DNA from: Verrucomicrobiota bacterium | GTDB lineage: Bacteria; Verrucomicrobiota; Verrucomicrobiia; Opitutales; Opitutaceae | Assembly (NCBI GenBank): GCA_026398065.1 | Contig: JAPLTR010000271.1 | Coordinates: 1-57,429, forward strand | Length of the DNA stretch: 57,429 nucleotides | Direction of reading: 5' to 3' | Part shown: positions 7,677-13,252 of the stretch, piece by piece | How the letters are laid out: each line of letters begins with the position of its first letter | How positions within the stretch are numbered: position 1 is the first letter of the stretch | Program-made: the position numbers and the translations under genes | The notes under the pieces: model-generated | Database searches by the model: none | What the model was told of the DNA's origin: nothing | Seen by the model: the letters and a program-made list of their open reading frames with translations, nothing else

Positions 7677-9026
7677 ATGCCTAAATCCAACCGCAGGTTC
7701 TCCCACGATCAGGTCGTATTTTTCTACGCGCTGCTCGCCGGTCTCCCCTCGGTCGCCGTCGCCATGTATTTCCTCTGGCTGGACGATCCCGCGCCCGCGG
7801 CGAAGATCCAGTGGACGTTCACGCTGCTGATCGCGGGGTTCTGGTTCGGTTTCGCCGCCGCCACGCGCAACCGCGTCGTGCGCCCGCTGCAGACGATGGC
7901 CAACCTCCTCTCCGCGCTGCGCGAGGGCGACTTCGCCGTCCGCGCCCGCGGCGCCCGCCGGGACGAGGCGCTGGGCGACGTGATGTTCGAGATCAACACG
8001 CTCAGCCGCACGCTGCAGGACCAGCGCCTCAACGCCCTCGAGGCCACCGCCCTCCTCCGCACCGTGATGGAGGAGATCAACATCTCCATTTTTGCCTTCG
8101 ACGCCGACCGCAAGCTCCGCCTCGCCAACCAGGCCGCGCAGCTCCTGCTCAACAAGCCCGCCGAGCGCATCCTCGGCCGCGACGCCGCCGAGATCGGCCT
8201 CGCCGACTGCCTCGACGGCGAGCCGACCCGCCTCCTCCAGATCACGTTCCCCGGCGGCACCGGCCGCTGGGGCATGCGGCGCAGCCAGTTTCGCGAGGGC
8301 GGGCGGCCGCACCAGCTCGTCGTCATCGCCGATCTCAGCCGCACGTTGCGCGAGGAGGAGCTGCTCGCGTGGCAGCGCCTCGTGCGCGTCCTCGGCCACG
8401 AACTCAACAACTCGCTCGCGCCGATCAAATCCATCGCCGGCAGCCTCAGCTCGCTCCTCCGCAATCCCAAGCGCGCGCCGGACTGGGAGGACGACATGCG
8501 CAGCGGCCTCGACATCATCGCGTCGCGTTCCGAGAGCCTCGCGCGCTTCATGCAGGCCTACGCGCGCCTCGCCCGCCTCCCCCAGCCCACCGTCGCGCCC
8601 TGCGAGATCACGGACCTCGTGCACCGCGTCGTCGCGCTCGAGCGCCGCCTCCCGGTGCGCGTGCTCGGCGGGCCGAACCTCACGCTCGCCTGCGACGCCG
8701 CGCAGATCGAACAGGTCCTGATCAACCTCGTGAAAAACGCCGTCGAGGCCGCGCTCGAGCAGCGCGCCGAGGGCCAGGCCGACGCCACCGTGCGCCTCTC
8801 GTGGCGCAGGACGGGCAACGTCGCCGAACTCCTCGTCGAGGACGACGGACCGGGCATCGCGCAGACCTCGAACCTCTTCGTCCCGTTCTTCACGACGAAG
8901 CCCGAGGGCTCCGGCATCGGCCTCGTCCTCTGCCGCCAGATCGCCGAGAACCACGGCGGCTCCCTCGCCCTCGCCAACCGCCCCGGCGACACCGGCTGCC
9001 TCGCGACCCTGCGGCTGCCGGCGTAA
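7677..9026 (+). CDS. Sensor histidine kinase (2 TM, minimal external loop, HAMP, PAS-like, HisKA, HATPase)
   Basis: 449 aa. TM1 is VVFFYALLAGLPSVAVAMYFLWL, the loop is DDPAPAAKIQ, and TM2 is WTFTLLIAGFWFGFAAA. H-box LGHELNNSLAPI. ATP-lid boxes NLVKNAVEA, DDGPGI and GSGIGL. Confidence 0.9.
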   Translation: MPKSNRRFSHDQVVFFYALLAGLPSVAVAMYFLWLDDPAPAAKIQWTFTLLIAGFWFGFAAATRNRVVRPLQTMANLLSALREGDFAVRARGARRDEALGDVMFEINTLSRTLQDQRLNALEATALLRTVMEEINISIFAFDADRKLRLANQAAQLLLNKPAERILGRDAAEIGLADCLDGEPTRLLQITFPGGTGRWGMRRSQFREGGRPHQLVVIADLSRTLREEELLAWQRLVRVLGHELNNSLAPIKSIAGSLSSLLRNPKRAPDWEDDMRSGLDIIASRSESLARFMQAYARLARLPQPTVAPCEITDLVHRVVALERRLPVRVLGGPNLTLACDAAQIEQVLINLVKNAVEAALEQRAEGQADATVRLSWRRTGNVAELLVEDDGPGIAQTSNLFVPFFTTKPEGSGIGLVLCRQIAENHGGSLALANRPGDTGCLATLRLPA

Positions 9027-9041
9027 TCAAACTCAGGATAC

Positions 9042-9059
9042 GCCGCGGCCCTCCGCGGC
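9042..9059. terminator. GC hairpin in a convergent intergenic region (possible bidirectional terminator)
   Basis: GCCGCGG-ccct-CCGCGGC is a 7-bp stem with a 4-nt loop. It lies between the HK stop (9026) and the stop of the minus-strand gene (9066). There is no U-tract. Confidence 0.3.
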
Positions 9060-9065
9060 CGCGCG

Positions 9066-11729
9066 CTATCTCTCGATGAACAGCGCCCGCTGGTCGCCGA
9101 TCCCGATCCACTGTTTGGCGAACGGCAGGTAGTTGATCAGCACGCCGTTGTTGCCCTGCATCGCGTTCTTCCGGCCGTCGAACAGCATGAGCGCCCCGTG
9201 GGTGTCGTCGACCGGCACGTAGATCGCAACGAGCGTGTCGATCGTCTCCGGGATGTAGTTCGCCAGCTGCTGGCGTGCGCGCGCCTCCGCGTAGTGCAGT
9301 TGCTCGGGGGTCGGATGAAACTGCCCCTGCACGGTGATTTCAAACGGCTCCTCAATCAGCGAGCGGCGGTAGGGCCACTTGAGTTTGGCATTGCGCAGCT
9401 CCTCTGCCGTCGGCGCGTGCGGCGGACTCACGATCTGCCGCCAGGCGGTGAGATGCATCGCGAGGGACGGGGGATGCCGGATCCCCTGCCGCACGCTCCC
9501 GACCGCGAGCAGGACGCCCAGAACCCAGCCCGCGGCCACCGCGGCCCAGGTCGCCGCCTGGCGCGGGGGAAAGTTCAGCCGCACCTCGTCGGCGGGGATC
9601 GCCACCGTCTTCACCTCGGCGCAGATCCGCTTCAGTTCCGCCGTCGCGGCCGCCAGCGTCGTCGGCTGGCCGGTGGCGATGGCGAGGCGTCGGAGCTCCG
9701 TTTCACAGCGGCCGATCCCATCGCGCCAGGCCCAGGGGGTCGTCTCCGCGATCCAGCGGCCCACTGACACCGCCTGTTCACGGTTGGTCAGCAGCCGCAG
9801 GCCCAGGGCAAGCACGATGGGGGTCAGCCCCAGCAGCACGCCGGTCGGCCCCGGCACGTGGACCGCCAGCAGCAGGATGCCGCCGATGCCCGCCGCCGCA
9901 AACAGCCACCGCCGGCCAAACACCATCGGGCCCGCCTTCATCGCCAGCTCCAGCCGGCCCCAGAACACGATCTTCACCAGGGCCGCGGCCCGCTTCAGCA
10001 GCTCCGCGAGCCGCCGCTGCCGGACCTCTTCATGCGTGAGAAAACCGAACCGCGGCGCCTCCTGCTCCATCCGGGCGAGCACCAAAATCATCACGGGCGT
10101 CGGGTGCGGGACCGAGAAAACCCGCTCCACCGCGGCATCCGTCGTCATCGCATAGCGCGTTTTCATTTTCAGCCGGGTGGCCGTCAGCTCCGTTTCGCCG
10201 GTCAGCGCCAGCCGCCACAACGCCGCCGGATCGCCCAGGTCGGCCGGCTTCACGCCGACCTGTTTTTCAAAAAAGAGCTCCGCATCGAGGACCCATTTCA
10301 CCAGTTCCTCCAGCAGGTCCGCCGCGGTGTGGTCGTAGCGGCGCACCTGGGCCACCAGCGCCGGCTCGGACAGCACGATCAGCTCGGTGCGGAGGGTCGC
10401 AAACTCCTCCGGCCGATCGAGGGCCGCCCGCAGGTTTTCCGGATTCAACGCCTTTCCCTTCCACCGAAAATGCCCCTGCGCCAGGGAGTTTAGCGCGAGC
10501 GTCGCCACCACCAGGTGGCGGAGCTTGGGCTCGACCTTGGTCAGCGCGGTCGACTTCTCCAGTGCGCGCACCGACTCGATTTGCGCCCAGTCCCGGCGGT
10601 GCGTTTCCGATTCCGCCAGAAACTTGGCGAGCGTGCCGGCCTGGTTGGCGGCCAGCGCATGCTCCTCCACCCTCGCGCAATGCTCCGGGCCCAGCAGGCG
10701 GTCGGCCGCCTCCGCCGCGGAATGGCTGCGGCCGTCGATGCGAAAGAAACGTTCGAGCCGCGCGGAGTTGTAGCGTTCGACCGGCAGCTCGCCAGCCAGC
10801 CACGACCGCACGCTCTCCGCCCCCCACCGTCCGTCCATCGAGCTTGTCAGCAGGCCGCGCAACAGCCGCGCCAGCCGCGGCTCGAGCGCCCCCATCAGCT
10901 CCACCGCGCCGGCCCGCAACGTCCCGGTCGCTCGCTCAAACAGGAGCGCCTCGGCCAGCCCGCCCAGACTTTGCGGCAGACCCGCCCGCAGGTCGGGCGG
11001 CACCAGCGTCACTACGTGCCGGCCGATCATGAACTGCTGCACCACCCGGCCCACCGACCACCAGTCCCACGCGAGCAGGGCGGACCCGGGCGAATGCTTG
11101 AACAGCCCGGCCGTCTCCGGCGGCGCGTACAGCGGATCCGCCTCGATCATGATCAGGCCCTTCTGCTCGGTCTCGGTGACCCGGTCCAGTCCCCCCACGA
11201 CAAAGTGCGGGCCCGCCGGTTCCTCCCGGACGAAGATCCAGTCCGCGTTCAGTTGAAAATGCCCCAGTCCCGCGGCGTGCAGCGCCTCGACGGCCAGCGC
11301 CAGCTGCCTCACCAGTTCGGCCGTAACCTCCGCCGTCGGTTCGCTCTGATCCGCCCGCCAGCGCCGCAGCGAAACTCCCGCCACCCCCTCCCAAACCTGG
11401 ACCAGCCCGTCCGCCGTGAGGTGCGACTCGATCGGCCGCTGCCAGTGGGGACACGGGATTGCCCGCAGCCGTTCGAATCTCGCCGTCCGGCCCTTGACGT
11501 CGTCGGCCGCCGCAAACGTGCGCAACAGCACCCCTTCGCCGGTCGTGAGATCGGTCGCCTGATACCAACCGGTCGTCGCGTCCCCCCACACCCCGGACAC
11601 CTGATAGCGCCCGTTCCAACATGCTCCGACCACGACCCGCCCCGCCGCGGGCCCGGGGCGCGAAGAGGGGTCCTTCGCTTCCAGACCGACAGCCCCGGAG
11701 GCGGGGGAATCGATGGTTTCTGAGAGCAT
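9066..11729 (-). CDS. 887-aa membrane protein with an N-terminal degenerate Hanks-type kinase (pseudokinase) domain
   Basis: The kinase-fold landmarks are present but the catalytic residues are lost. VLLRTF replaces VAIK, HAAGLGHFQLNADWIFV replaces HRDLKPxN, GGLD replaces DFG, and YAPPE and WDWWSVGRVVQQFMIG are retained. A long helical middle region follows, then ~3 TM helices (aa ~608-745) and a ~140-aa C-terminal domain of unknown type. Confidence 0.6.
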   Translation of the reverse strand: MLSETIDSPASGAVGLEAKDPSSRPGPAAGRVVVGACWNGRYQVSGVWGDATTGWYQATDLTTGEGVLLRTFAAADDVKGRTARFERLRAIPCPHWQRPIESHLTADGLVQVWEGVAGVSLRRWRADQSEPTAEVTAELVRQLALAVEALHAAGLGHFQLNADWIFVREEPAGPHFVVGGLDRVTETEQKGLIMIEADPLYAPPETAGLFKHSPGSALLAWDWWSVGRVVQQFMIGRHVVTLVPPDLRAGLPQSLGGLAEALLFERATGTLRAGAVELMGALEPRLARLLRGLLTSSMDGRWGAESVRSWLAGELPVERYNSARLERFFRIDGRSHSAAEAADRLLGPEHCARVEEHALAANQAGTLAKFLAESETHRRDWAQIESVRALEKSTALTKVEPKLRHLVVATLALNSLAQGHFRWKGKALNPENLRAALDRPEEFATLRTELIVLSEPALVAQVRRYDHTAADLLEELVKWVLDAELFFEKQVGVKPADLGDPAALWRLALTGETELTATRLKMKTRYAMTTDAAVERVFSVPHPTPVMILVLARMEQEAPRFGFLTHEEVRQRRLAELLKRAAALVKIVFWGRLELAMKAGPMVFGRRWLFAAAGIGGILLLAVHVPGPTGVLLGLTPIVLALGLRLLTNREQAVSVGRWIAETTPWAWRDGIGRCETELRRLAIATGQPTTLAAATAELKRICAEVKTVAIPADEVRLNFPPRQAATWAAVAAGWVLGVLLAVGSVRQGIRHPPSLAMHLTAWRQIVSPPHAPTAEELRNAKLKWPYRRSLIEEPFEITVQGQFHPTPEQLHYAEARARQQLANYIPETIDTLVAIYVPVDDTHGALMLFDGRKNAMQGNNGVLINYLPFAKQWIGIGDQRALFIER

Positions 11730-11848
11730 GCTGCGTTAACCCCAATCGCTCGATTTCCGAACGACTTAAGGCCGATGGTATTTCTACTCTACGGCGCAGC
11801 GGGGCCTTTCCCTCTGAGTAGTCCCGCGCCGTCCGGCTTTCCGACCTG

Positions 11849-11977
11849 TCCCACTTCTGGGAAATCCACGTCCCACCAACGCGGCCTGGATCGCCGACCC
11901 GTTTTCCATCGAAAATTTCTTTCCACTCTTTTCCAACGACTTATCCACCGTCGCATCCCTTGGGCACGACCGCTGCA
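11849..11977 (+). promoter_or_regulatory. Sigma54 promoter module P2 (upstream of the MacA-like gene)
   Basis: GGGCACgaccgCTGCA at 11962-11977 has GG-N10-GC spacing. The palindrome TCCCActtcTGGGA at 11849-11862 lies 100 nt upstream of the GG. AAATTTCT at 11913-11920 sits about 50 nt upstream of the GG. Confidence 0.7.
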
Positions 11978-11998
11978 AACATCCCCGCACACACACAC

Positions 11999-13252
11999 AT
12001 GGACATCGCGCGCCCCGACCAATCCAAGCTCAAGCGGAAGAAACTCATTATCTATATCTCGGTCGCCGTCGTCATCCTCGTCGGCATCACCGTCCTCTTG
12101 GCGCGCCTCAAGCCCGCCGCCCCCACCGTCGAGCGCAACCTCGTCTGGATCGATACGGTGAAGCGCGGCCAGATGCTCCGCCAGGTCCGCGGTCTCGGCA
12201 CCCTCGTTCCCGAGGAGATCCGCTGGATCGCCGCCCGCACCCAGGGGCGCGTCGACAAGATCATCCTCCGCCCCGGCGCGATCGTCACTCCCGAGAGCGT
12301 GATCCTCATGCTCGCCAACCCCGACGTCGAGCAGGCCGCCGCCAACGCCGACTCCCAGCTCAAGGCCGCCGAGGCCGAACTCGCCAATCTCCGCGTCACC
12401 CTCCAGTCCGGCGTCCTCGCCGCCGAATCCGTCGCCGCCAGCGCCAAGGCCGACTACGAAACCTCCCGGCTCCGCTCCGAGGTCAACGAACAGCTCGCCA
12501 AGGACGGCCTCATCTCCGACCTCGACCGCCGCCTCTCCAAGGTCACCGCCGAACAGGCCGCCACCCGCAACGGCATCGAGCAAAAACGCTTCGCCTTCGC
12601 CCAGGACGCCATCGCCCCGCAGCTCGCGGTCAAACAGGCCGAGGTCGACCGCCTCCGCGCCCAGGCCCGCCTCCGCCGCGACGAACTCGAGGCCCTCACC
12701 GTCCGCTCCAGCATGAACGGCGTCCTCCAACTGCTCCCCGTCGAGGTCGGCGCGCAGGTCCAGCCCGGCTCCAACCTCGCCCGCGTCGCCGATCCCACCA
12801 GGCTCAAGGCCGAGATCCGCGTCGCCGAGACCCAGGCCAAGGACATCCTCAAGGGCCAGCTCGCCCAGGTCGACACGCGCAACGGCGTCGTCGAGGGCAC
12901 CGTCGCCCGCATCGATCCGTCCGTGCAAAACGGCACCGTCACCGTCGATGTGCTGATCACCGGCGCCCTCCCGAAGGGCGCGCGCCCCGACCTCTCCGTG
13001 GATGGCACCATCGAGCTCGAGCGCCTCACCGAGGTCGTCTACGTCGGCCGCCCCGCCTTCGGCCAGGAGAAGAGCGAGGTCGGCATCTTCAAGCTCGACG
13101 CCGAGGGCGCCTACGCCACCCGCACCCGCGTGAAGCTCGGCCGCAGCTCCGTGAACACCATCGAGATCGTCTCCGGCCTCCAGCCCGGCGACCGCGTGAT
13201 TCTCTCCGACATGTCGCCGTGGGATTCCAACGATCGCATCAAACTCAACTGA
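11999..13252 (+). CDS. MacA/HlyD-family periplasmic adaptor (membrane fusion protein)
   Basis: 417 aa from ATG 11999. Basic N-terminus plus a TM helix (KRKKLIIYISVAVVILVGITVLLA). Lipoyl/barrel-sandwich motifs (GRVDKIILRPGAIV, MNGVLQLLPVEVGAQVQPG). A long coiled-coil hairpin in between. Confidence 0.85.
   Translation: MDIARPDQSKLKRKKLIIYISVAVVILVGITVLLARLKPAAPTVERNLVWIDTVKRGQMLRQVRGLGTLVPEEIRWIAARTQGRVDKIILRPGAIVTPESVILMLANPDVEQAAANADSQLKAAEAELANLRVTLQSGVLAAESVAASAKADYETSRLRSEVNEQLAKDGLISDLDRRLSKVTAEQAATRNGIEQKRFAFAQDAIAPQLAVKQAEVDRLRAQARLRRDELEALTVRSSMNGVLQLLPVEVGAQVQPGSNLARVADPTRLKAEIRVAETQAKDILKGQLAQVDTRNGVVEGTVARIDPSVQNGTVTVDVLITGALPKGARPDLSVDGTIELERLTEVVYVGRPAFGQEKSEVGIFKLDAEGAYATRTRVKLGRSSVNTIEIVSGLQPGDRVILSDMSPWDSNDRIKLN

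What the first reader, a model, noticed from the sequence alone, without database searches (positions are those of the whole stretch)
9066..11729. Membrane-anchored bacterial pseudokinase next to the two-component system and divergent from P2
The N-terminal ~240 aa keep the Hanks-kinase scaffold (G-loop-like region, YAPPE, WDWWSVG..F..G) but lack every catalytic residue. The beta3 Lys is replaced by Arg in VLLRTF. The HRD...N motif is replaced by GHFQLNADW. DFG is replaced by GLD. The rest is a long helical region, ~3 TM helices and an unknown ~140-aa C-terminal domain.

The gene is convergent with the kinase gene, and its start lies 120 nt from the P2 enhancer palindrome. Bacterial transmembrane pseudokinases are poorly characterised, so this could be a scaffold or sensor connected to the regulon.
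Basis: partly seen in the sequence, partly recalled or inferred. Interest (0 to 1): 0.6.

Follow-up and report, generated by a model that had tools for sequence, protein, structure and literature searches.

The report
Membrane-anchored dead kinase, Opitutaceae family
This gene encodes a membrane protein whose kinase-shaped domain has lost every catalytic residue; it belongs to an undescribed family confined to Opitutaceae bacteria, and it sits beside the two-component system only because it was inserted there in this one genome.

Summary
The 887-aa ORF at 9066-11729(-) is real and intact. Residues 31-320 form a confident protein-kinase fold: AF2 pLDDT is 91, at least 2000 PDB kinase chains match, and the family profile hits StkP at 1e-12.

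The loss is family-wide. 146 relatives, essentially all Opitutaceae, lack these residues and form one clade. About 22 more distant cousins share the same unusual C-lobe motifs, the helical domain and membrane anchoring, yet keep K/HRD/N/DYG. No Lys is conserved anywhere in the domain, so there is no WNK-like rescue.

After the kinase domain come a 280-aa helical domain, three TM helices with a conserved cytoplasmic loop, and a roughly 100-aa alpha/beta domain predicted to lie outside the cell. None of these matches Pfam or PDB.

The proposed link to the TCS/ADOP regulon is not supported. In 64 named loci the gene normally sits upstream of prfB, never next to such a system. Same-genus genomes have the HK gene abutting the MacA promoter or carry unrelated inserts there.

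Most likely it is a non-catalytic receptor or scaffold. This is a new family of a known kind and of moderate interest.

The parts
9066..11729 (-). Complete CDS of the 887-aa transmembrane pseudokinase (stop codon 9066-9068)
   Evidence: ORF list. GC3 0.87. Full-length homologues at 44-61% identity with the same start. It keeps 59 of the 62 family columns that are >=90% conserved.
11640..11729 (-). N-terminal tail (aa 1-30), disordered and poorly conserved
   Evidence: pLDDT below 50 for aa 1-25. Mean column conservation 0.26.
10770..11639 (-). Hanks-type pseudokinase domain (aa 31-320). R70 replaces the beta3 Lys, H157-F-Q159 replaces HRD, W164 replaces the catalytic Asn, and G180-L-D182 replaces DFG. 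APPE, WDWWSVGR, RAGAVE and LLRGLLT..RW are conserved.
   Evidence: Pfam Kdo E 1.8e-5 and Pkinase E 1.5e-4. AF2 pLDDT above 90. Foldseek finds at least 2000 kinase chains, TMt up to 0.79. Profile versus PDB: StkP 1e-12. Motif statistics.
9918..10769 (-). Post-kinase all-helical domain (aa 321-604), shared with the catalytically intact cousins; no known family
   Evidence: Helices in the AF2 model at pLDDT ~96. The representative search shows cousins matching profile positions ~17-600. No Pfam or PDB sequence match.
9780..9917 (-). TM1-TM2 helical hairpin (aa 605-650; hydrophobic cores 608-625 and 629-648, PGPTG turn)
   Evidence: Hydropathy. Model helices 607-624 and 628-659. Family-wide positive flanks before TM1 (+2.1) and after TM2 (+2.5).
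9555..9779 (-). Cytoplasmic loop (aa 651-725) with the conserved PW.WRDG..RC..E motif
   Evidence: W666, R674 and E678 are nearly invariant in 79 sequences. Two helices in the model.
9480..9554 (-). TM3 (aa 726-750)
   Evidence: Hydropathy peak at 728-746. Model helix 725-751.
9069..9479 (-). Linker plus C-terminal alpha/beta domain (aa 751-887; folded core ~aa 785-887, order beta-alpha-beta5). Predicted extracytoplasmic, with no known fold match.
   Evidence: Stand-alone AF2 model, pLDDT 90.5. Foldseek against PDB: best E 0.15, probability <=0.28. No PDB sequence-profile hit. Topology inferred from three TM helices after a cytoplasmic N-terminus.
9027..11840 (.). Lineage-specific inserted segment between the HK gene and the P2/MacA promoter region; it contains only this gene plus ~40 nt of 3' flank and ~110 nt of 5' flank
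   Evidence: blastn of window 8701-12200 against the orthologous loci of four same-genus genomes. Homology ends at window ~9021-9026 and resumes at ~11840-11848. G003 has only ~150 nt between HK and MacA.

Best explanation
The gene encodes a catalytically dead, membrane-embedded Hanks-type pseudokinase. It belongs to a previously unnamed family confined to Opitutaceae (Verrucomicrobiota).

Shown:
- The N-terminal 290 aa adopt a protein-kinase fold.
- The beta3 Lys, HRD Asp, catalytic-loop Asn and DFG Asp are all replaced, in this protein and in every one of ~146 relatives. Those relatives form one clade, derived from an active kinase lineage with the same C-lobe signature, helical domain and membrane anchoring.
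- No compensating Lys, Asp or Asn is conserved.
- The most conserved surface is the C-lobe: the activation-segment end and P+1 region DP.YAPPEAAGL.H.PG, alphaF WDWWSLGR..QE, RAGAVE, and LLRGLLT..RW.

Inferred:
- The protein sits in the inner membrane with the pseudokinase and helical domains in the cytoplasm and the small C-terminal alpha/beta domain outside.
- It acts without phosphotransfer, as a receptor-like scaffold or allosteric partner. The outside domain and the three-helix membrane module set the conformation or oligomeric state. The conserved C-lobe face binds a cytoplasmic partner, possibly one of the genome's roughly nine other Hanks-kinase-like genes or one of their substrates.

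Its position beside the NtrC-type two-component system and the ADOP pump operon is an accident of a single-gene insertion at a variable junction, not a functional linkage.

Sub-confidences: real gene and kinase fold ~0.97; no protein-kinase activity ~0.85; non-catalytic scaffold or receptor mode ~0.5; not part of the sigma54 regulon ~0.9.
For: Fold:
- Full-length AF2 model with mean pLDDT 91 and pTM 0.68.
- Foldseek against PDB returns only kinase domains: PAK1, TRIB2 pseudokinase, DCLK1, CaMKII and ULK1, with TMt up to 0.79.
- The family profile hits 532 PDB kinase chains; the best are the bacterial StkP at 1e-12 and PknA.

Dead site, in 79 family sequences:
- Position 70 is R 57 / S 6 / A 4, never among the top residues as K.
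- Position 159 is N 39 / G 24 / A 6.
- Position 164 is T 31 / S 13 / N 8.
- G179/G180 replace the DFG Asp.
- Of 168 sequences classified, 146 lack the set and 22 cousins have K-HRD-K-N-D[YF]G.
- The pseudokinases are monophyletic (support 0.86).
- No column in aa 30-316 reaches 40% Lys.

The active cousins share YAPPE, WDWW.GR, RAGMVE, LLRGLLT..RW and the helical domain.

Selection: the window protein keeps 59 of 62 highly conserved columns, and the C-lobe is the most conserved part (0.60).

Topology.

Insertion and lack of linkage. The ancestral slot upstream of prfB is empty in the window's own genome.
Against:
- Lys->Arg pseudokinases such as KSR1 and EphB6, and by prediction ActPs2, can still bind nucleotide (PMC12599244). 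'Dead' therefore means no phosphotransfer, not necessarily no ligand.
- No partner is identified. The conserved neighbours (prfB, TatC, GDP-mannose dehydratase, ValRS) are core genes of one bacterial family and say little about function.
- The flanks of TM3 carry no clear charge bias, so the outside location of the C-terminal domain rests on counting helices.
- The model's coordinates and PAE were not available, so pocket occlusion and domain packing could not be inspected.
- The insertion could in principle have brought the gene under local regulation that sequence alone would not reveal.
Confidence: 0.6

Rival explanations
1. Nucleotide-binding switch. The pocket, now lined by Arg70 (beta3), Arg81 (alphaC, 97% conserved) and Arg at the catalytic-loop Lys position (58% of the family; Asn161 in this protein), still binds ATP, GTP or another anionic ligand without turnover. 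Occupancy toggles the conformation of the scaffold. This refines the best explanation rather than opposing it.
For: R70 is conserved at 72%, R81 at 97% and R161 at 58%. The HRD His and D/E163 are retained. In the actinobacterial ActPs2 family the same K->R and D->N pattern is predicted to bind ATP through two arginines, and KSR1 and EphB6 bind nucleotide with a beta3 Arg (PMC12599244, read).
Against: The Gly-rich loop is not conserved in the family. The DFG Asp that holds Mg2+ is Gly. 28% of members have S, A, T or H instead of R70. The window protein itself has N161 and a bulky W164 in the catalytic loop.
Confidence: 0.25
2. Regulon accessory. The protein senses or scaffolds for the adjacent NtrC-type two-component system or the sigma54-driven MacA/ABC/ADOP operons. 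For example, it could serve as the partner of the histidine kinase, which has almost no periplasmic loop.
For: Physical adjacency in this genome: convergent with the HK gene and 120 nt from the P2 enhancer region.
Against: - No co-location in 64 family loci or in 5 close homologues.
- Four same-genus genomes keep the TCS (95-97% and 84-87% identity), and the three whose contigs extend far enough also keep the pump genes. None has this gene; G003 has HK directly next to MacA.
- Other genomes carry unrelated cargo at the same junction.
- No sigma54-type promoter lies on its strand.
- Eleven of 12 same-genus genomes lack the family entirely.
Confidence: 0.06
3. Repurposed enzyme. The kinase fold now catalyses a different reaction, such as AMPylation (as in SelO) or glutamylation (as in SidJ), using non-canonical residues.
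For: Precedents exist for bacterial 'pseudokinases' with new chemistry (PMC12599244). Several polar residues are invariant in the domain: E205, D222, R228, Q231, E265, E277 and R301.
Against: SelO and SidJ keep the ATP-binding Lys and the metal-binding Asp (Table 1 of PMC12599244); this family has neither. The invariant polar residues are the standard structural ones of the C-lobe (APE Glu, alphaF Asp, subdomain XI Arg) or are shared with the active cousins (RAGMVE), so they do not form a new site.
Confidence: 0.05
4. A decaying passenger gene with no function in this genome, carried in with the insertion.
For: The genus otherwise lacks the family. One same-genus genome (G008) holds only fragments, with an internal stop. 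GC3 is slightly lower than in the neighbouring genes, 0.87 versus 0.90-0.95.
Against: The frame is uninterrupted over 887 codons. 59 of 62 highly conserved columns are retained, including every invariant residue. The conserved start is kept.
Confidence: 0.04

Closest known systems
ActPs2 bacterial pseudokinases (Actinobacteria; O'Boyle et al. 2025, PMC12599244)
   Same: Hanks-type fold. The beta3 Lys is replaced by a conserved Arg, the HRD Asp by Asn (Asn in 49% of this family, Gln in the window protein), and DFG is lost. Transmembrane segments lie C-terminal to the pseudokinase domain.
   Different: ActPs2 is defined by a ~32-aa insertion between beta3 and alphaC and a ~250-aa insertion in the activation loop, and it descends from the actinobacterial Act2 kinases. 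This family has a 4-5-aa deletion at the first site and a short activation segment. It descends from DYG-type kinases with a WDWW/RAGMVE C-lobe, is confined to Opitutaceae, and carries a helical domain, three TM helices and an extra C-terminal domain. The resemblance in substitutions is convergent.
MviN/MurJ pseudokinase domain of Mycobacterium tuberculosis (ActPs3; PDB 3UQC)
   Same: A fully degraded Hanks-type domain fused to an integral membrane protein with an additional extracytoplasmic domain. It works as a non-catalytic docking platform: phosphorylated by PknB, it recruits FhaA (PMC12599244). This is the best functional analogy for the proposed scaffold role.
   Different: In MviN the pseudokinase follows a 14-TM flippase and lacks most of the activation loop; its motifs are VALT / Lsidhpsr. 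Here the pseudokinase is N-terminal, keeps the HRD His and a complete APPE segment, and is followed by a helical domain and only three TM helices. No flippase or peptidoglycan genes are nearby.
EssB/YukC of the type VIIb secretion system (Firmicutes; PDB 6Z0F)
   Same: A membrane-anchored protein with a cytoplasmic N-terminal pseudokinase degraded in all three motifs and an extracellular C-terminal domain. It acts as a dimeric scaffold (PMC12599244).
   Different: EssB is single-pass, about 440 aa, and always encoded inside T7SSb clusters. This protein has three TM helices and a 280-aa helical domain, and no secretion genes were seen among its annotated neighbours.
Unnamed catalytically intact cousins (e.g. 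P0109, P0111 from a Verrucomicrobiae MAG, and a Bryobacterales locus)
   Same: They share the unusual C-lobe signature (Y[AS]PPE, WDWW.[LV]GR..QE, RAGMVE, LLRGLLT..RW), the post-kinase helical domain and C-terminal membrane anchoring. They are the evolutionary source of the family.
   Different: The cousins keep VFIK, HRD[LIV]KPxN, DYG and GT..Y. Many have N-terminal D-A-T-[QE]-F repeat arrays or Sel1 repeats. P0111 lies directly after a PP2C phosphatase gene. They lack the C-terminal alpha/beta domain of the Opitutaceae family.

Membership tests
Hanks-type (eukaryotic-like) protein kinase superfamily | Bilobal protein-kinase fold | tested here: met
   AF2 pLDDT above 90 over aa 31-320. Foldseek against PDB gives at least 2000 kinase chains, TMt up to 0.79 over ~280 columns.
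Hanks-type (eukaryotic-like) protein kinase superfamily | Significant sequence-profile similarity to known kinase domains | tested here: met
   Family profile versus PDB: StkP 1e-12, PknA, CaMKII and ULK among 532 chains. The single sequence alone is weak: Pkinase 21.7 bits is below the 31.7 cut-off, and Kdo 24.7 bits is above its 21.3 cut-off.
Catalytically competent protein kinase | beta3 Lys, HRD Asp, catalytic-loop Asn and DFG Asp present | tested here: not met
   The window protein has R70, Q159, W164 and G180. The same four positions are lost in 146 of 146 family members, whereas 22 cousins keep them.
Pseudokinase (sequence definition: at least one of VAIK-Lys, HRD-Asp, DFG-Asp missing) | [quoted passage not shown] | tested here: met
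   All three are missing and the fold is retained.
WNK-like active kinase with relocated Lys | A conserved Lys elsewhere in the N-lobe (beta2/Gly loop) that substitutes for the beta3 Lys | tested here: not met
   No alignment column between aa 30 and 316 has Lys in 40% or more of 79 sequences, and the Gly-loop region is not conserved.
ActPs2 pseudokinases | ~32-aa beta3-alphaC insertion and ~250-aa activation-loop insertion; descent from actinobacterial Act2 kinases | tested here: not met
   There is a 4-5-aa deletion at beta3-alphaC relative to the active cousins, and only ~20 aa lie between GLD and APPE. The family is confined to Opitutaceae. Features as defined in PMC12599244. No ActPs2 sequence was available for a direct tree.
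GLW pseudokinases | A GLW motif replacing HRD and LLLL/W replacing VAIK | tested here: not met
   The family has H-[LF]-[NG] with His 97% conserved, and V-x-L-R at beta3. Definition from PMC12599244.
EssB/YukC (T7SSb) | Single-pass membrane protein encoded within a type VIIb secretion cluster | tested here: not met
   Three TM helices. The neighbours annotated with Pfam are housekeeping or variable genes with no secretion components, and tblastn finds prfB downstream in 31 of 64 loci. T7SS genes were not searched for explicitly.
SelO / SidJ-type repurposed kinase-fold enzymes | Retained nucleotide-binding Lys and metal-binding Asp used for new chemistry | tested here: not met
   Neither residue is present or relocated. 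Definition from Table 1 of PMC12599244. Enzymatic activity itself cannot be tested here.
Member of the local NtrC/sigma54 ADOP regulon | Conserved co-location with the TCS/pump genes, or a sigma54 promoter of its own | tested here: not met
   MacA in 0 of 64 loci, ADOP in 1, and an NtrC-like gene within 10 kb in 4, none adjacent. The gene is absent from the orthologous locus in four same-genus genomes. No TGGCAC-N5-TTGCW-like site (2 or fewer mismatches) lies on the minus strand at 11730-11860.

The most novel reading that the evidence does not exclude
The Opitutaceae family may be a ligand-gated transmembrane pseudokinase switch. The unmatched extracytoplasmic alpha/beta domain would bind an envelope or environmental ligand. 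The Arg-lined former ATP pocket would bind a nucleotide or another anionic metabolite. Together they would control, without any phosphotransfer, the activity of a partner Hanks kinase or another cytoplasmic target. This would be a bacterial counterpart of receptor pseudokinases such as HER3 or EphB6, evolved independently from an active receptor-kinase lineage that still exists in other bacteria.
Probability: 0.12. Interest if true: 0.7.

Novelty: new variant of a known kind. Interest (0 to 1): 0.4.

Why it matters
Bacterial Hanks-type pseudokinases are catalogued but almost none has a known function. The recent atlas and review list seven families (ActPs1-3, GLW, CP1, DYD, DLHK), and neither text mentions Verrucomicrobiota.

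This work defines an additional, clean family of about 146 sequence clusters, all degenerate, from a single origin. Catalytically intact cousins with the same architecture are still extant. That gives a natural active/dead pair for asking what a kinase fold is kept for once catalysis is lost. The family also adds two confidently modelled domains with no Pfam or PDB match.

At least two cultured strains carry members, Opitutus terrae (P0209) and Oleiharenicola sp. Vm1 (L102), so genetics is feasible.

For annotating this window, the practical result is negative: the gene should not be counted as part of the sigma54/ADOP regulon.

Tried and rejected
- Pfam and NCBIfam on the whole protein gave only weak Kdo, Pkinase and MAD6-kinase hits, and nothing for the other domains.
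- Profile searches of the helical region and the C-terminal domain against PDB sequences and Pfam found nothing credible.
- Foldseek of the isolated C-terminal domain against PDB gave no significant match. The weak stefin/cystatin and YeaZ hits (probability <=0.28) were rejected as evidence of homology.
- Conserved neighbours as functional clues were rejected. TatC, prfB, ValRS, the GDP-mannose genes and PyrB/C are core-genome synteny within one bacterial family.
- The gene after prfB ('unk470') was considered as a partner. It is soluble, has no Pfam hit and gives no evident link.
- No active member of the extended family exists in the window's own genome. Other Hanks-kinase-like genes match only over the kinase domain.
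- The active cousin was searched in 301 Verrucomicrobiota genomes; only the pseudokinases themselves matched.
- Foreign origin by base composition is inconclusive: GC is equal to the flanks and GC3 only slightly lower.
- No sigma70-like or sigma54-like promoter was found upstream of the gene, and no credible terminator. The GC-rich hairpin between the convergent stops is not better than shuffles.
- A third homologous-protein search with cousin P0109 returned only four proteins and no names.
- Earlier scan notes by sequence: none.
Full report
THE OBJECT. The ORF at 9066-11729 on the minus strand is the only long frame there with coding-type composition: 887 aa, GC3 0.87, GC2 0.49. It converges on the histidine-kinase gene (7677-9026, +) and diverges from the MacA-like adaptor gene. 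The organism is an Opitutaceae bacterium (Verrucomicrobiota), according to earlier notes and the names attached to homologues.

IS IT A KINASE FOLD? The single sequence gives only weak family hits. Pfam Kdo scores E 1.8e-5, just above its threshold. Pkinase scores E 1.5e-4, below its threshold. PDB phmmer E-values are about 0.04-0.1.

With homologues the signal becomes unambiguous. A 79-sequence alignment gave a full-length AlphaFold2 model with mean pLDDT 91 and pTM 0.68. Foldseek against the PDB returned at least 2000 hits, all protein-kinase domains, with target TM-scores up to 0.79 over about 280 columns; PAK1, the TRIB2 pseudokinase, DCLK1, CaMKII and ULK1 are among them. The family profile hits 532 PDB kinase chains, led by the bacterial Hanks kinases StkP (1e-12) and PknA. 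The domain spans about aa 31-320.

IS IT DEAD? The loss is family-wide rather than private to this protein. In 79 sequences:
- position 70 is Arg 57 / Ser 6 / Ala 4;
- position 159 is Asn 39 / Gly 24 / Ala 6;
- position 164 is Thr 31 / Ser 13 / Asn 8;
- positions 179-180 are Gly.

An exhaustive profile search of 1.84 billion representatives found 120 clusters at E<1e-30, mostly full-length at 870-950 aa. I classified 168 sequences from that search and the homologue searches. 146 lack the catalytic set. 22 lower-scoring relatives carry K, HRD, K, N and D[YF]G intact.

Those cousins share the family's peculiar C-lobe motifs (Y[AS]PPE, WDWW.GR..QE, RAGMVE, LLRGLLT..RW), the post-kinase helical domain and C-terminal membrane segments. 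On a tree of the kinase domain the 146 degenerate sequences form one clade, with support 0.86. This is consistent with a single loss of catalysis in an ancestor that already had this architecture.

The pseudokinases also differ from the cousins by a 4-5-residue deletion between beta3 and alphaC, and by DP.Y in place of GT..Y before APPE. No column between aa 30 and 316 has Lys in even 40% of sequences, and the Gly-rich loop is unconserved, so there is no WNK-type relocation. The invariant polar residues (E205, D222, R228, R301 and others) are the usual structural ones of the C-lobe.

THE REST OF THE PROTEIN. The model shows the following:
- aa 321-604, an all-helical domain at pLDDT ~96;
- a TM1/TM2 hairpin (608-625 and 629-648);
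- a 75-aa loop with two helices and the conserved PW.WRDG..RC..E motif;
- TM3 (727-747);
- a short low-confidence linker;
- an alpha/beta domain with order beta-alpha-beta5.

Family-wide, the segments before TM1 and after TM2 are strongly positive (net +2.1 and +2.5). That places the N-terminal domains and the loop in the cytoplasm and, by helix count, the C-terminal domain outside; the flanks of TM3 are themselves uninformative.

The C-terminal domain modelled alone reaches pLDDT 90.5 but has no significant Foldseek match in the PDB (best E 0.15) and no sequence-profile match. The helical domain likewise has no Pfam or PDB match. The cousins do not share the C-terminal domain.

Conservation is highest in the kinase C-lobe (mean 0.60, against 0.41 for the N-lobe and 0.33-0.46 elsewhere). 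The window protein keeps 59 of the 62 columns that are at least 90% conserved, so it is an intact family member under constraint.

DISTRIBUTION AND CONTEXT. Among 61 relatives' genomes, 14 have a match. All the full-length ones are in the same taxonomic family, at 27-35% identity. Of 12 same-genus genomes only one has anything, and that is fragments with a stop codon.

A scan of one genome per GTDB species returned 64 loci. Sixty-two are Opitutaceae or Opitutales and related MAGs: Opitutus, Nibricoccus, Oleiharenicola, Rariglobus, Didemnitutus and Lacunisphaera. The other two are active cousins, in a Bryobacterales MAG and a Verrucomicrobiae MAG. Sources annotate members only as 'hypothetical' or 'protein kinase family protein', for example in Opitutus terrae.

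Within 10 kb of the gene in those 64 loci:
- RF2 (prfB) lies just downstream in 31;
- an unknown 470-aa gene follows prfB in 26;
- GDP-mannose dehydratase lies upstream in 30;
- TatC is present in 13 and ValRS in 16;
- a second paralogue sits between ThiL and PyrC/PyrB in 5;
- MacA is found in 0 and an ADOP permease in 1;
- an NtrC-like regulator is found in 4, at 37-39% identity and several kb away.

Five close homologues (44-61% identity) have unrelated neighbours. One keeps the TatC position, and one lies in tandem with a 947-aa paralogue before prfB.

HOW DID IT GET HERE? Four same-genus genomes contain the orthologous locus: pilus gene, NtrC regulator (95-97% identity) and HK (84-87%). 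In the three whose contigs extend far enough, MacA, the ABC ATPase and the ADOP genes follow.
- In G003 the HK gene ends about 150 nt before MacA.
- In G006 a 2.1-kb insert with a GT87-like gene lies between them.
- In G011 an 8.3-kb insert carries HDOD, malic-enzyme, SPFH and IS200-like transposase genes.

Nucleotide homology to the window stops at ~9021-9026, the end of the HK gene, and resumes at ~11840, the start of the P2 region. The pseudokinase gene is therefore a single-gene insert at a junction that is variable within the genus.

In the window's own genome the family's usual slot is empty: the epimerase gene is followed by prfB after about 200 nt. The copy in the window is the only one in this genome. 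Base composition does not distinguish the insert from its flanks. No sigma54-like or sigma70-like promoter was detected on its strand.

INTERPRETATION. The suggestion of a link to the two-component/ADOP regulon fails the comparative test.

The most likely mode of action is non-catalytic: a receptor-like membrane scaffold whose conserved C-lobe face engages a cytoplasmic partner. This is inference from anatomy, from the conservation pattern, and from the precedents of MviN-FhaA and EssB/YukC (PMC12599244).

Whether the Arg-lined pocket still binds a nucleotide is open. That has been proposed for ActPs2, which shows the same K->R and D->N pattern convergently.

COMPARISON WITH WHAT IS KNOWN. The bacterial STK atlas describes 42 families, 7 of them pseudokinase families (bioRxiv 10.1101/2025.01.12.632604). 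Neither it nor the 2025 review (PMC12599244) mentions Verrucomicrobiota. The defining features of ActPs2, ActPs3/MviN, GLW and EssB are not met here (see the membership table).

The family is therefore a new, lineage-restricted variant of a known kind: the membrane-anchored Hanks-type pseudokinase. Its architecture is novel, and its active sister lineage is unusually clear.

LIMITS. I had no access to model coordinates or PAE, and no AFDB fold library. No partner was identified. Function remains inferred.

Noticed in passing
L112 5524-7480; L115 5741-13975; L113 5657-5793 (same-genus orthologous loci): The junction between the HK gene and the sigma54-driven MacA operon varies within the genus. 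It is empty in G003, carries a GT87-like membrane glycosyltransferase gene in G006, and carries HDOD, malic enzyme, an SPFH/Band-7 protein and an IS200-like Y1 transposase in G011. In the window it carries the pseudokinase. This looks like an insertion hot spot.
   Followed up: partly
L036 6502-7281 and 7274-10144 (Verrucomicrobiae MAG); proteins P0109, P0111: The catalytically intact cousins carry N-terminal arrays of D-(D)-A-T-[QE]-F repeats. P0111's gene overlaps the end of a PP2C phosphatase gene by 8 nt. Together this looks like a kinase/phosphatase pair with multiple Thr docking motifs, possibly binding FHA domains. The pseudokinase family has lost both features.
   Followed up: no
proteins P0115, P0124, P0102: Some relatives replace the membrane and C-terminal part with long runs of Sel1-like repeats (AAEQGH..AQ.NLG.MY..G.GV). 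P0102 combines this with a degenerate site (HLRISPASL, AGLED), which suggests catalysis may have been lost in more than one lineage.
   Followed up: no
L028 10001-12640 and 12802-15645: There are tandem paralogues of the family (879 aa and 947 aa) directly upstream of prfB in one metagenomic Opitutaceae contig. Several genomes (G015, G028) also hold two copies at separate sites.
   Followed up: partly
G008:C63:23059-24217 (L023): The only other same-genus genome with any trace of the family has just fragments, matching aa 23-115, 666-710 and 686-887 with an in-frame TGA. This is a decayed remnant and suggests the genus is losing the gene.
   Followed up: no
L012 5266-6699 and its counterparts in 26 of 64 loci: A conserved soluble ~470-aa protein with no Pfam match always follows prfB in Opitutaceae.
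   Followed up: partly
G000 contigs C848 (end) and C738 (start): The window genome's prfB gene is split across two contig ends, with aa 1-203 on C848 and aa 178-345 on C738. This is an assembly break, possibly at the programmed frameshift region. The upstream order ValRS-GMD-epimerase-prfB lacks both TatC and the pseudokinase.
   Followed up: partly
window 9042-9059: A GC-rich hairpin (GCCGCGG-CCCT-CCGCGGC, about -18 kcal/mol) lies in the 39-nt gap between the convergent stop codons, inside the inserted segment. It has no U-tract and is not clearly better than shuffled sequence (z -1.9 and -0.9).
   Followed up: yes
L027 6377-8092: A 571-aa gene hitting Pfam eCIS_core lies between the GDP-sugar genes and TatC, just upstream of the pseudokinase orthologue P0007.
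   Followed up: no
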